NCBI GenBank assembly: GCA_951406725.2
Contig: OX597817.1
Location: forward strand, 65,162,001 to 65,226,000
Reading direction: 5' to 3'
From: Octopus vulgaris
Taxonomy: Eukaryota
Length of the DNA: 64,000 nucleotides
Positions within the stretch are counted from its first letter, which is position 1; each line of letters begins with the position of its first letter. Made by a program: the position numbers and the translations under genes. The notes below the pieces were generated by a model. That model saw only the letters and a program-made list of their open reading frames with translations, was not told where the DNA came from and ran no database searches. Shown here piece by piece: positions 9,961-58,360 of the stretch.

Positions 9961-12136
9961 ACGAAGATAGTAATTACGAATGCCAAGTTTATCAGATCGC
10001 TTCCCTATTCAGCTAAAAGGAAGTAACCTAAGCCGCAACCCAAACAAACTAATTACATAAACCAGAAACAAGCTTTATCCAATTTTCTTCTACTGACGTC
10101 TTTTGGTGAGTATTTCTGCGGTGACATTGCAATAAGAGATGGTTCGTTTAGAAAATGGTAACATCATTAGCATTTTAAAGGAATGTAATAGCTTGATAGA
10201 TAGATAGATAGATAGATAGATAGATAGATAGATAGATAGATAGATAGATAGATAGATAGTGGTAGAGTGTAAACGAATGATATATATATATATATATATA
10301 TATATATATATATATATATATATATATATACACATACACAGATAAATATTAATATATATGTATAAATGTATAGATACAAAGATGTTTAGACATAGAAGTG
10401 TAGAGATATATAGATATATAGATATATACATGTATAGATATACATATATATAACTCTCGCCCTCTCTCTTTCCCTCTTTCCCTCTTTCCCTCTTTCCCTC
10501 TTTCTTTATCTGTCCATTCATTCAACCATGTATGCATTAAACCATCCATCCATCCATCCACCCATCATTCTATCTATCTATCTATCTATCTATCTATCTA
10601 TCTATCTATCTATCTATCTATCTATCTATCTATCTATCTACTTCTCTTCTCTATCTGTAATTGCGTCTATATGTATATATATATATATATATATATATAT
10701 ATAGAGAGAGAGAGAGAGAGAGAGAGAGACATATGGATGCATAGATATATAGATATATAGATATATAACTATATAGATATATGGATGCATAGAGGTACAG
10801 ACATATGAATGTATAGATGTACACCTATATAGATAAATAGATATACGCAGAGACATAGATATATAGGTATACAGATGTATATAGCGCTCGTGACGTAGAT
10901 GTGAAAGCAATATATATATATATATTTGTATGCTTATACACATAAATATATGTACATATGTACACGCACCTTCACACACACACAACACACACACGTACAC
11001 ACATATAACACATTTATATATGTATGTAAATGTATGTACGTTTCTGTGTGCTTTGGGCGGGTGAGAGCGTGTTTGTGTGTGGGATATCCCATAAATACGA
11101 GAGATACATGTCTGTTCTCTGAAATGGCAGAAGCTGTGTGCTTAAAAATGTTAACCTGCCAGTAGTAGTAGTAGTAGTAGTAGTAGTAGTAGTAGTAGTA
11201 GTAGTAGTAGTAGTAGTAGTAGTACGTGCAGCATAAGAAAATAGACATTGCTATTATGTAACATGTAATGTTGTGCTACAACAGAACATGATATAGTGTC
11301 AATAAGGGAGGAAAATTGTTCAGATTGCTTTGATGTAGACACTTAAATACCTACTTGCAAAGATACATATATTACGCATACAGACTCTCATGAATGTACT
11401 GGCACACACATACAGACAAGAATACAAGAAACATACAGAGACACATGTATGTGTGTGTGCGTGTGTGTGGGCATGCGTGCGTGTATCTGCGTATGAAAGA
11501 GATGTATATGTATGAACATGCACGCACATATATACATACATACATAGGAATTGATGCTTGCATATATGTGAATGCATATATATATATACCTGTGTATGTA
11601 TGAACGTATTCATAAGTATTCAATGAATTTTAAATTATCTTTTATCCCATGTGGATGGTATGTTAACGTGAGAATAGACGAATGAGATGACAAGTGAAGT
11701 TGTTAGCAGAATAATATATTTATTAAGAAATCCGAAATTGTAAAGCTTAGTCTATGTACTTATAAAGTTCTTAAAAGAACTTGATTTCTGAAGTAAGAAA
11801 TCTATTGGTGGGGCATGCATTGTGATAGCAGAGTCCTCTGTTGGAGAAATCATATACTATGTGTGTGTGTGTGTGTATAAGTATTTATACACAAGTGTAT
11901 ATGTATATGTATATGTATATGTATATGTATATATATATATATATATATATATATATATATAATAAATATTAGGGAATAAATCCAAATTTACAGGGAAAAA
12001 ATCAGATTTAGGATTAAATCCAATTTTATAGTAAAATATTATAAAATATTATTAGAGACAAAACCACTATTTTGCAAAACAAACAAGGAAAGACTTAATC
12101 AATACATAAAATTTTAATAAATAGTCAAAAAAACCG

Positions 12137-12179
12137 CCACTACAATTGTTTCTTGTCTTGATCGACAATCTTCAGGTGG
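12137..12179 (-). ncRNA. Minimal type I hammerhead ribozyme (sense copy of the element)
   Basis: Reverse complement: ccac CTGAAGA ttgtc gatcaa gacaa GAAAC aatt GTA gtgg. Confidence 0.85.
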
Positions 12180-15100
12180 ACTTCCAATCTAAAATATCAA
12201 TATTTTAAAATATAAAAATAATAATTTTAAAATAATTAAAGTATGAATGAAAAAATATAAATATATAATCCATATATAACCTATATATAATCCATATATA
12301 ATCAATATATAAACAATATATAAACTAAAATAAACCTATCAACAATTAAATATAAAATATAAAATATAAAATATAAAATATAAAACAAAACAAAAAAATA
12401 ATAATAATATAATAATAAACTATATATACACCCATACACATATACCTAATTATATATAACCATATCTAACTACATACACTAAATCACACACCTATATATA
12501 TATCCCTATACATACACATAAAAACGTCTAGGCAACTATAAATAAATAAAATAGCTAAATACTTCAACACAATACTTATTCATACTCCCACACACACACA
12601 CATACAACCCACATTCACGCTCTAGAAAACGGACATCACTTAAAATTATGAACGGAGAAATAGAATAAATGGAATTAAAAATTATATTCACTTGGTAAAA
12701 CGAGCACTACTTAAAAATTATGAATGAAACAATGCAATAAAACAACAGACATCGCAAATAGACACAAATTACTACGAATTCCTTAACAAACCTACCATGA
12801 TAAACCAAAACTCATAAAAACATATAATTATAAAATCTCCCTTTACTAAACTCTATAACATACCTATATAGCAATCCCCCTAACCTAAACATTCACACAC
12901 AAATACACACACAATAAACCACACACCCACGACATATACAAATACCCACACCACTTACACATACCTATACATACATATAAACCTCAACATATACTCCAAA
13001 AACCCACTCAACCCCACACAGACAAATAAACACAAAAATTATGAATGGATTCTTTTATAAAACTACCATGATAAGCTAAAACTCACAAAACATAAATGAT
13101 AAAACCTCCCTTTACTAAACACTATAACATACTTATATAGCAATCCCTTTAACCTATACATTCACACACAAAAATACACACACGTAAACCACACACCCAT
13201 AACAAATACAAACACCCACCCCACTCACACACACCCACAAGTACATATAAGCCTCAACATATACACCAAACAAAATTACTTTACCAAGGAACTTAACATA
13301 TGTATAAAAAATATATAACCGCTCTGGAAACGAACATCTTTAAAATAATGAATGGAGAAATGGAATAAATGGAATTAAAAATAATATTCACGTGGCAAAA
13401 CGAACACCACTCAAAAATTATGAATGAAACAATGTAATAAAACAACCAACATCGAAAATAGACAAATTACCACGAATTCCCTAAAAAAACCATGATAAAC
13501 CAAAACTCTTAAAAACATATAACGATAAAATCTCCCTTTGCTAAACTCTATAACAAACCTATATAGCAATCCCCCTAACCTAAACATTCACACACAAAAA
13601 AAAAACAAAAAAACACACACGTAAACCACAGACCCACAACTTATACACATACCTATACTAACTTATAAACCTCAATATACACCAAAAACCCACTCCCTCC
13701 CCACACAGACAAATTAACACATACATCCCAAAACCTAAATAACAAACCCATATACACATTCACACACACACGCAAAACACACACACACAACAGATACATA
13801 TACTCCCTCAATATACGCATATACATACTCACTAAACTCGATATATACAACAATATTTACACACCCACACTCATACAGATAAATAAATTATACAACTAAA
13901 AAGTCACACACAATCTCATATACATAAACACTCCAATAAAAAACAACATTAAATACATCGTAATTAACCAGAATATCAAAAATAACAATATGACATAAGG
14001 AGAAATAAAATACATACTTATAAGTCAGTTTCAAATTATGAAGTGAAATTAAATTCTTAGCCGTTAAAAAAATCAAACCAAAATTACGTTACCATAGAAA
14101 TATAACTTATGTAAAAAAAAAGAATACGCGCCATGGAAAGTAAACGTCATTTAAAATTATGAATGGGGAAATAGAATAAATGGAACTAAAAACTATAACC
14201 ACGTGGCAAACCATCACTACTTAAAAAATATTTTATTATGAATGGATTCTTTAATAAAACTACCATAATAATAAATTATTATATACATTTATGAGCTTTA
14301 GCTCATCTTAGCAGCTCTAACAAACAACTTGCAGTAACCCAAATCTATTCTCGATGCCTGCCTTACTACTACACTATTCCATTCCCAATTCCAAGCAACG
14401 CTATCCCACCACCCGGTTACAATTCCCAACTCCACCCATTCAATCACAATTTCAACGACGTTCACCTCCACAGCGCTACATATAAGCCTCAACATATACA
14501 CCGGAGATTCACTTTCACATCCGTGCGGATGGGTGAGAGTATACATTAAGTGTAGTGATGGGGCTCCCATTACTATACACATTTGTACCTGTGTGGTAGT
14601 CTCCATGTGTATATTCACGCACGGGTATAAATGCAGGGGGTACACGCGCACGGCATGTACGTGTACCCCCTCACATGTACATATGCATGCTAGTTGGGCT
14701 CGATATGTGCAACAATGTAATCGCGCCCGCATACATGCATATGGGCGAGTTGCACAATCAAAATACGCACACGTGTGTGTGCGTTCCCTGGTTGTGCAAT
14801 TCACCCATCTGGGTGTGAGTGGGTGTATGCGTATTGCTGTGGATGTCGAGCTTAATACGTATGTATATGAGTGTGTATTGGGGGGTTGTACGTATTTATT
14901 GTGTGCATGTGCTTCACGCACGTGCGTCCATGTATGGATGAATATATTGGGATTGCTATATGGGTGTAAATTGGGTATGGAGGGGGAGTTTTGTCATTGT
15001 ATGGGTGTAGGTTTCATTTGTGATGGTTATTTGTTGGTGATTTTTAATATGTTCTGTATATTTGGGTTAGTTATGTATTATTCTAGTGTGTATAATTGTA

Positions 15101-57179: not shown

Positions 57180-57445
57180 CCCTCTCTTCGATGTCATCGT
57201 AGAATATACACGCAGCAAGTTTAGATGGGCTGGACACGTCACCCGGCTCACCGATAATCGGTGGACCCGCGCAGTTGTCGTGTGGTACCTGCGCGAGCGG
57301 AAACAACCACACGGAAGGCCTCAACAACGGTGGCGCTATGATTTCAGGAGGGCGATTGGAATCACGTTGATGAGAAAGGCGAGGAGTGGGCAGCGTGCTG
57401 TGACCAGCGGTGTCAAATGGACGCCCGACGGACTGGTCAGTTAAG
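57180..57445 (+). mobile_element. RTE-clade LINE 3' end
   Basis: SKFRWAGHVTRLTDNRWT..VV.W..RERKQPHGRPQQRW. Confidence 0.85.
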
Positions 57446-57660
57446 GTGCAGCCGAAATTGCGCGGATGATCTGGGTCTTGACTGAAGATCGAAGGCTTCG
57501 AATGTCCCGTCCGTGTTTTTTGTATCGTCTTCTAAATGTTTTGCGTTCTCATCCCAGTTTGTAATTATATATAAATATGTATGTATATATATATATAAAT
57601 ATGTATGTATATATATATATATATATATATATATATATATATATATATATATATATATAT

Positions 57661-58360
57661 ATCTATACAATATGTTACATTACTCGGTAGTCAAGATAAA
57701 ACTCTGAGTTTCAGATGCCGAAGTGGAAATCCACAACACCATCTCTTCGGTTATCTGGCTATTTGATAACGTTTTCAAATAGCCAGATAACCGAAGAGAT
57801 GGTGTTGTGGATTTCCACTTCGGCATCTGAAACTCAGAGTTTTATCTTGACTACCGAGTAATGTAACATATTGTATAGATAAATTTCCTCTATTTACATA
57901 ATATTGAGGTCTCTTTCTTTCTTTTGTTATCTTACCGTTTTATCAATATATATATATATATATATATATATATATATATATATATATATATATATATATA
58001 TATATATATATATATATATATATATATATATATATATATATATATATATATATATATATATATATATATATATATATATATATATATATTGATAAAACGG
58101 TAAGATAACAAAAGAAAGAAAGAGACCTCAATATTATGTAAATAGAGGAAATTTATCTATACAATATGTTACATTACTCGGTAGTCAAGATAAAACTCTG
58201 AGTTTCAGATGCCGAAGTGGAAATCACAACACCATCTCTTCGGTTATCTGGCTATTTGAAAACGTTATCAAATAGCCAGATAACCGAAGAGATGGTGTTG
58301 TGGATTTCTCGGCATCTGAAACTCAGAGTTTTATCTTGACTACCGAGTAATGTAACATAT
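57661..58360. mobile_element. Two tail-to-tail fold-back hammerhead elements (57661-57946 plus strand; 58089-58360 minus strand) around (TA)n
   Basis: Each is a ~205-220-bp palindrome with a 66-nt tail. The whole forms a higher-order palindrome centred on (TA)n 57947-58088. Confidence 0.85.
57785..57847 (+). ncRNA. Type I hammerhead with variant core CCGAAGA (further full or partial copies in the other arms)
   Basis: agataa CCGAAGA gatg...catc t GAAAC tcaga GTT ttatct. 6-bp stem I; stem III actc/gagt. Confidence 0.7.

What the first reader, a model, noticed from the sequence alone, without database searches (positions are those of the whole stretch)
11961..58360. Shared fold-back rule: the 5' inverted copy omits a 3' tail and stops at a TA-like microhomology
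Seen in several unrelated families, the layout is [inverted copy][fold-back point][sense 3' region][tail](TA)n. Tails are 84 nt (11961-12044), 93 nt (32705-32797), 66 nt (32966-33031 and 57881-57946), ~100 nt (after 43412) and ~50 nt (40520-40568). The outer end of the inverted arm falls on TATA-like sequence (tatagat, tatataat, aataatatt). Two insertions of one family (32835, 57661) fold back at different points yet end the arm at the same base. Established: Penelope copies can have inverted pLTRs lacking a short 3' extension. Inference: the cDNA self-primes as a hairpin, copies itself back, and joins the (TA)n target through microhomology, so each insertion creates a new palindrome.
Basis: partly seen in the sequence, partly recalled or inferred. 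Interest (0 to 1): 0.75.

Follow-up and report, generated by a model that had tools for sequence, protein, structure and literature searches.

The report
Penelope retroelements primed from both ends
These back-to-back repeats are insertions of Penelope-type jumping genes into TA microsatellites, a known layout, and because almost every insertion has one long end and one short end while either arm can be the longer, they were likely made by copying one RNA from both cut DNA strands at once rather than by one copy folding back on itself.

Summary
The layout is real. The elements are Penelope-like retroelements (PLEs): an autonomous 2.58-kb Hydra-clade family and non-coding hammerhead-bearing families. 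Of 120 two-armed insertions in four families picked without regard to their ends, 119 have one tail end and one tailless end. The proposed mechanism (one cDNA folds back and stops at a TA motif) is not enough. In family A the tailless arm is the longer one about as often as the tail arm (26 vs 30 of 81). In eight insertions the arms do not overlap. Tailless copies occur alone. Better TA motifs upstream are passed. The tail end also has TA microhomology. Best reading: both nicked strands of (TA)n prime reverse transcription on the same template at two fixed sites, and the two cDNAs are joined by microhomology or snap-back. Fold-back may explain a minority of centres. The layout and the two start sites are in print (PMC3846280, PMC8557442, PMC11167929). 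The strict pairing was not found in five searches. The scan noted twin priming before, on retrozymes elsewhere in this genome. The window's own hairpin centres were not confirmed in short-read contigs.

The parts
57662..57946 (+). Family A (Hydra-clade PLE) 3' end: tailless inverted arm, centre near 57770, sense arm, 66-nt tail 57881-57946; (TA)n on both sides
   Evidence: parent element
58090..58356 (-). Inverted duplicate of the 57662 unit across (TA)72: same centre, differs only by deletions (4 nt, 1 nt, about 12 nt at the end); secondary duplication or assembly error
57791..57832 (+). Variant hammerhead-like core of family A (CCGAAGA ... extra U ... GAAA); activity untested
32837..33031 (+). 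Family A short two-armed insertion, centre near 32900, tail 32966-33031; shares (TA)20 with the family C copy
31934..32797 (+). Family C: non-coding 545-560-nt tandem-unit element (retrozyme-like); near-perfect palindrome centred at 32318, tail 32705-32797, hammerhead core 32465-32501
11962..17077 (-). Family B: long non-coding PLE-type element; tail end at 11962 (tail 11962-12044), tailless end at 17077, hammerhead core 12149-12175 on the minus strand; tail arm is the longer here
40520..42486 (-). Family D: old coding PLE remnant with decayed RT motifs (GTAM.TKVAPT, YLDD, LPFLDILI); tail about 38 nt at the left end; flanks are (GA)n/(TC)n
43165..43880 (+). Family E: non-coding ~500-nt tandem-unit element; tailless arm 43165-43275, tail arm is a partial tandem ending at 43880; hammerhead core in 9 of 46 arms of other copies, deleted here
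4721..5565 (+). Family G: old two-armed copy; tailless end at 4721, tail of about 100+ nt holding an internal (TA)n; hammerhead core at 4865 (minus) lies in the tailless arm beyond the reach of the tail arm; right end approximate
46491..46900 (+). Family F: old low-copy two-armed element with hammerhead core at 46610; tail end not at (TA)n; right end approximate

Best explanation
The structures are insertions of Penelope-like retroelements into (TA)n, and each two-armed insertion was likely made by twin priming: both nicked target strands would prime reverse transcription on the same template, one at the tail site and one at a site 38-110 nt upstream. Shown: two fixed end classes per family, paired one of each; arm lengths not tied to the tail; arms of one insertion share private alleles; 1-5-nt microhomology or short insertions at the centre; TA microhomology at both outer ends. 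Inferred: the GIY-YIG endonuclease of a (predicted) dimer cuts both strands with a stagger of about 10-15 nt; because (TA)n is self-complementary both 3' ends read ...TA and pair with UA/AUA/UAUA at either site; the two minus-strand cDNAs stop independently; their 3' ends are joined by microhomology, in a minority after snap-back or after both reach the same RNA 5' end; host repair fills in. Non-coding families B, C and E would borrow this machinery; tandem arms would come from multimeric or circular RNA.
For: One tail end plus one tailless end in 119 of 120 two-armed insertions picked by opposite-strand hits only (A 50/50, B 34/35, C 23/23, E 12/12). Genome-wide, young family A has 976 tailless ends against about 1020 tail ends (1168 read-through minus 148 tandem). 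Family A, 81 independent insertions: tail arm longer by >20 nt in 30, tailless arm longer in 26, within 20 nt in 25; a second set of 31 alone gave 16/10/5. Family C gave 6/8/9 of 23, family E 2/4/6 of 12; in B, L181 and L182 have the tailless arm 0.7-1.2 kb longer. Arms with no overlap: L031b, L066, L081, L291, L294, L296 (A) and L095, L101 (C); four of these abut within about 12 nt of the tailless site. 11 of 70 tailless ends on contig C1 have no tail arm within about 4 kb. Longer TA tracts upstream (A -321..-276; B -544..-296) are passed by every long tailless arm seen. Arm-to-arm divergence is 59/10026 (0.6%) with 22 private alleles shared. Centre overlap of 2 nt or more in 9 of 14 asymmetric insert-free junctions against 18% by chance. 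Interrupted-TA duplications in 4 of 65 flank pairs, shuffle p=0.007. In vitro, the anole PLE cuts and extends both strands, starts at two sites that bound the tail, and is predicted to be a dimer (PMC11167929).
Against: One tail-tail pair exists (L175). Near-equal arms are in excess (7 of 50 long insertions), so the two arms are not always independent. Long palindromes are unstable (own knowledge), so later lopsided central deletion of a fold-back product could also leave either arm longer; arm lengths are only weakly correlated (rho 0.02 for 50; 0.22, p=0.18, for the 41 with both arms >300 nt), which does not exclude this. Shared alleles could arise by later conversion between arms; 48 private alleles sit in one arm only, and in about 5 of 33 pairs many other copies are closer than the partner arm, mostly on 1-4 differences. 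In vitro the anole enzyme showed no strand preference for either site and no primer-template homology. The target duplication rests on 4 cases, one doubtful. No biochemistry on these families.
Confidence: 0.7

Rival explanations
1. One reading: one cDNA starts at the tail site, folds back, is copied towards the target and joins it at a TA microhomology; lopsided central deletions later leave either arm longer.
For: Excess of near-perfect palindromes, inverted 5' stubs in L006 and L088, identical arms; self-priming was proposed for rotifer Penelope (PMC3846280).
Against: Needs a second event in about a third of insertions, including the youngest (L037, L044, L049: 0-2 differences between arms). 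Does not explain a fixed end that ignores better TA tracts, tailless single copies joined to (TA)n like ordinary 5' ends, tail arms that stop at the tailless site, or a template jump present only in the tail arm of L057.
Confidence: 0.15
2. Two separate RNAs (two protein-RNA particles) from the same source copy prime the two strands; the pairing of sites comes from an asymmetric dimer, not from one shared RNA.
For: Avoids displacing the first cDNA from the RNA; a few pairs differ at subfamily-type positions (L033, L071); an earlier AI note (e1-9539494) saw halves from different parents.
Against: Most arms share private alleles although thousands of copies exist; abutting non-overlapping arms fit one RNA better.
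Confidence: 0.08
3. A DNA intermediate (for example from self-priming on antisense RNA) is cut by the endonuclease at two staggered sites, giving the tail on one side only.
For: Proposed in print: antisense self-priming (PMC3846280) and endonuclease-mediated resolution of the tail (PMC8557442).
Against: The later in vitro work maps the tail limits to RT start sites; both ends here carry primer-type TA microhomology; a symmetric DNA intermediate should give like ends (inference).
Confidence: 0.05
4. Fold-back artefacts of long-read sequencing or assembly.
For: Deletion-rich second arms at L048:3130-3225 (not supported by contigs), at 58090-58356 and in L175; no listed contig bridged the centres at 32318 and 32900.
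Against: Family-specific fixed ends with non-palindromic flanks; arms diverged with age (85-89% in D, E, G); both end types seen as loose ends in contigs of run X10 and the tail end in X15 and X16; opposite-strand joints in X1 and X10.
Confidence: 0.02

Closest known systems
Hydra clade of C-terminal EN+ Penelope-like elements (Craig et al. 2021, PMC8557442; passages and section 15 read)
   Same: Family A: 2.58-kb unit, one ORF, RWK, DKT, CxCx5C linker, CxxC and CxH, no CCHH, (TA)n target; partial tandems; inverted 5'-truncated copy; tail often at one end only.
   Different: Tail 66-74 nt instead of 30-40; hammerhead core is a variant; the paper gives no counts of end pairing or arm lengths and ascribes the tail to endonuclease resolution.
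Poseidon PAc of Anolis carolinensis (Frangieh et al. 2024, PMC11167929; parts 1-2 of 4 read: results and start of methods)
   Same: Two RT start sites bounding the tail; both strands cut and extended; predicted dimer; AT-rich target.
   Different: In vitro, no strand preference and no primer homology; the pairing of one site per strand and the origin of inverted arms are not addressed in what I read.
Adineta vaga Penelope with inverted pLTR and optional tail (Arkhipova et al. 2013, PMC3846280; parts 1-4 of 5 read)
   Same: Head-to-head arms, palindromic junctions, optional tail, 8-10-nt target duplications.
   Different: Explained there by self-priming on an antisense template; very few copies.
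Metazoan non-LTR retrozymes (Li, Clavereau, Pollet 2026, 10.64898/2026.07.22.740005, parts 1-3 of 5 read; PMC7229834 search listing only)
   Same: Families C and E: non-coding tandem units of about 500-560 nt with a type I hammerhead core; thought to be mobilised by PLEs.
   Different: Here they show the PLE two-ended footprint directly; circular RNA and cleavage not tested.
LINE-1 twin priming
   Same: Second nicked strand primes on the same RNA and gives a 5' inversion joined by microhomology; eight insertions here have that non-overlapping form.
   Different: In L1 the second site is variable and the inversion does not duplicate sequence; here the second site is fixed, is used in most insertions, and both cDNAs usually run over the same region.

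Membership tests
Hydra-clade PLE (family A) | Single ORF, RT followed by C-terminal GIY-YIG, element under 3 kb | tested here: met
   717-aa open frame (708 from Met) in a 2579-2585-nt unit; Pfam GIY-YIG only weakly, E=0.018, below cut-off
Hydra-clade PLE (family A) | RWK and DKT motifs, CxCx5C linker, CxxC and CxH, CCHH absent | tested here: met
   KRMRWK, SDKTK, CSCRNKELC, CGLC, CPH read in the translation against the definition
Hydra-clade PLE (family A) | Insertion into (TA)n | tested here: met
   Median 17 TA units at both end types, n=93 and 81
Hydra-clade PLE (family A) | Canonical hammerhead in the pLTR | tested here: inconclusive
   Only a variant core was found; no hammerhead family among the 150 of 222 Rfam rows shown
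Hydra-clade PLE (family A) | Placement in the Hydra clade by RT phylogeny | not tested
   No reference set fetched
EN+ PLE insertion architecture (families A, B, C, E) | Partial tandems, inverted 5'-truncated copy, optional tail | tested here: met
Non-LTR retrozyme (families C, E) | Non-coding tandem units each with a type I hammerhead core | tested here: met
   C: 559-nt unit, arrays up to 10 units, canonical core; E: 501-nt unit with core
Non-LTR retrozyme (families C, E) | Self-cleavage and circular RNA | not testable with these tools
   No run on record as RNA; contigs only
TIR transposon / MITE | Matching inverted termini at both ends | tested here: not met
   Ends differ by a fixed tail in 119 of 120, centres vary, parent codes for RT

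The most novel reading that the evidence does not exclude
The PLE 'tail' is the spacing between two reverse transcriptases of one dimer sitting on one RNA: every full integration is an obligatory coupled twin priming, one fixed site per target strand, and (TA)n is targeted because both strands present the same primer. This would be a general integration mechanism for Penelope elements and retrozymes, distinct from LINE-type priming with second-strand synthesis.
Probability: 0.45. Interest if true: 0.7.

Novelty: new member of a known kind. Interest (0 to 1): 0.48.

Why it matters
How Penelope elements, the sister group of telomerase, form their tandem and inverted ends is named as an open problem in PMC8557442. 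Thousands of young copies give a quantitative footprint (one tail end and one tailless end, independent arm lengths, shared template) that separates the published models. An intact 708-aa ORF, two defined start sites and a defined target make the twin-priming model directly testable. It also means that this animal genome gains palindromes, and so hairpin RNA templates and unstable sites, as a routine product of insertion.

Tried and rejected
Short-read confirmation of the window's centres: contigs of X1, X10, X13 and X9 laid on 32200-33031 listed no piece bridging 32318 or 32900 (4933 pieces not shown); inconclusive. No RNA holder listed. A conserved stem bringing the two start sites together: z = -0.9, -1.0, -2.5, -0.4 for A, C, B, E; not general. 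Hammerhead cleavage as the cause of either end or of the centres: distances differ by family and centres vary. Telomerase-like addition of TA at one end: flank lengths are equal (p=0.84) and 4 of 65 flanks look duplicated; not supported, not excluded. PDB search with the ORF: nothing. An apparent tailless-tailless pair (L119/L120) was a tail arm interrupted by another insertion. Left out of the family A length tally as complex or cut: L060, L061, L065, L066, L086, L089; of C: L101, L105, L189, and L192 (duplicate of L191); six short C1 pairs and seven C1 single hits were not fetched; 3 of 68 pairs were skipped; 2 of 42 junctions were not called, and several 'insert' calls there are private variants against the reference copy. 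The second set was picked from end-type lists, so it is used for lengths only, not for the pairing count. One search failed on a script bug and was rerun. Arkhipova 2006, cited for the tail, was not read; no supplements were opened, and figure S2 of PMC11167929 and files S1/S2 of PMC8557442 may bear on novelty.
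Full report
Setting. The window is G000:C4:65162001-65226000 of a 2.8-Gb animal genome rich in (TA)n. I take it to be an octopus-type genome from recalled repeat style; this was not tested and nothing depends on it.

Observation. Self-comparison and reading confirm head-to-head arms with a tail at one end: B 11962-17077 (tail 83-84 nt), C 31934-32797 (93), A 32837-33031 and 57662-57946 (66). 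D (40520) has a tail of about 38 nt and non-TA flanks. The tail arm of E (43165) runs into a second unit and ends at 43880. The unit at 58090-58356 repeats the 57662 unit inverted, with the same centre and only deletions, so it is counted once. F and G are old copies that fit the rule loosely.

Identity. A 25-mer of family A has 3969 exact hits. [quoted passage not shown] C and E are non-coding units of 559 and 501 nt in tandem arrays with hammerhead cores, that is retrozyme-like. B is a 5-9-kb non-coding element with a short ~270-nt form. D is a decayed coding PLE. The inverted copy, the optional tail and the microsatellite target are all described for PLEs.

Ends. Each family has two end classes. 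In A, 92 of 93 tailless ends lie in about 16 nt, mostly in two TA registers, and 77 of 81 tail ends read CAA|TATA. In tandem units the sequence after the tail end goes on TA (A) or TATA (C), so both ends overlap the target by 3-6 nt. Among two-armed insertions found only by opposite-strand hits, 119 of 120 have one end of each class (A 50, B 34 of 35, C 23, E 12; seven of the A loci came from a query that held the tail). The exception is a tail-tail pair, L175. Genome-wide counts for young A are 976 tailless and about 1020 tail ends.

Test of the fold-back model. A hairpin copy of the tail cDNA cannot be longer than that cDNA. In A the tail arm is longer by more than 20 nt in 30 insertions, the tailless arm in 26, neither in 25 (81 independent, after removing the duplicate). 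A second set from the rest of contig C1 gave 16/10/5. Differences reach 0.5-3 kb (L037, L049, L270, L274, L286). C gives 6/8/9 and E 2/4/6; in B two of five long copies have the tailless arm longer. Eight insertions have a tail arm that holds only the tail or part of it, four abutting the tailless site. Eleven of 70 tailless ends on C1 have no tail arm within about 4 kb, several joined straight to (TA)n at their 5' end. Longer TA tracts upstream are passed. The tailless end is therefore best read as a start, not a stop. This matches the anole PLE, whose purified protein cuts and extends both strands and starts at two sites bounding the tail.

One template. Overlapping arms differ at 59 of 10026 sites; mean divergence to other insertions is 0.6-7.7%; 22 private alleles are in both arms and 48 in one (33 pairs). 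B arms are 99.6 and 99.96% alike against 98.2-98.7% between copies. Later conversion could add to this. Centres show 2-5 nt overlap in 9 of 14 asymmetric insert-free junctions (chance 18%); 17 of 40 were called as insertions, some of them variants. Four of 65 flank pairs hold a duplicated interruption of the TA run, 10-15 nt in three (shuffle p=0.007), a weak sign of a staggered cut in a pre-existing microsatellite.

What remains of fold-back. Long arms are not correlated in length, yet 7 of 50 match within 35 nt (expected 1.4), many short copies are near-perfect hairpins, and two single copies carry inverted 5' stubs. Snap-back of a cDNA 3' end, or both enzymes reaching the same RNA 5' end, would explain these. 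Fold-back followed by lopsided deletion cannot be excluded from one genome.

Artefact check. Short-read contigs hold the tail end (X10, X15, X16), the tailless end (X10) and opposite-strand joints (X1, X10). X1 may be the assembly's own sample. The window's centres were not bridged by listed contigs. Deletion-rich second arms show some assembly noise at palindromes.

Comparison with print. Searches found the architecture, antisense self-priming, endonuclease resolution and the two in vitro start sites, but no report of obligatory one-site-per-strand pairing; subscription papers and supplements were not seen. A recent octopus repeat annotation lists active Penelope families without such detail (passages). 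I formed the twin-priming reading before looking (note); earlier AI notes on retrozymes in this genome say the same and are not independent support.

Verdict. Known kind of element and known layout. The value lies in a quantitative footprint on an autonomous family that makes an open mechanistic question testable. Interest 0.48.

Noticed in passing
window 57735-57806 and 58228-58299: The family A palindrome scores above Rfam's gathering cut-off for mir-9 (59.8 vs 58.6 bits). The antisense of the element's 3' UTR matches the mir-9 consensus arm at 19 of 23 nt, so the sense RNA is a near-complementary miR-9 site (two G:U pairs, two mismatches) over the hammerhead-like core. May be chance.
   Followed up: no
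window 57612-58415: 800-bp palindrome: a whole two-armed insertion duplicated in inverted form across (TA)72 with unrelated outer flanks; a true secondary duplication or an assembly error.
   Followed up: partly
L057 (G000:C1:74577700-74582400): Both arms of one family A insertion carry the same SINE-like insert at -1063, so a passenger was copied with the element; only the tail arm has a template jump.
   Followed up: partly
L047/L048 and L220: Head-to-tail arrays of 4+ full 2.58-kb units (A) and 10 units (C) in single insertions, as a multimeric or circular RNA template would give.
   Followed up: no
window 11962-17077; L181, L182: Family B carries kilobases of strand-biased CA/GT-rich sequence with internal repeats and an internal inverted block (about 14400-15260) and no RT; 3144 hits of its end motif; its autonomous partner is unknown.
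   Followed up: partly
window 30200-30767: Inverted pair of 168 nt (97.6%) made of SINE-like sequence around (TA)12, with a 97-nt exact direct repeat at 30367-30463 and 31196-31292.
   Followed up: no
window 6880-7230 and 58960-59007: Small element with 104-nt inverted ends (MITE-like), and a 48-nt hairpin followed by three 20-nt direct repeats.
   Followed up: no
window 48131-48535, 51155-51682, 55663-56067, 1336-2624: Fragments of other retroelements: an RT/RNase H piece (Pfam E=1.8e-6), LINE-like RT and C-terminal pieces, and a possible ORF1 with a zinc knuckle (last three by recalled motifs only).
   Followed up: no
runs X13, X15, X16: Family A words are held at 0.8 share by runs labelled as three other organisms; in X15 and X16 one 2255-nt contig at depth 22-28. 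Related species, mixed samples or transfer; not resolved.
   Followed up: no
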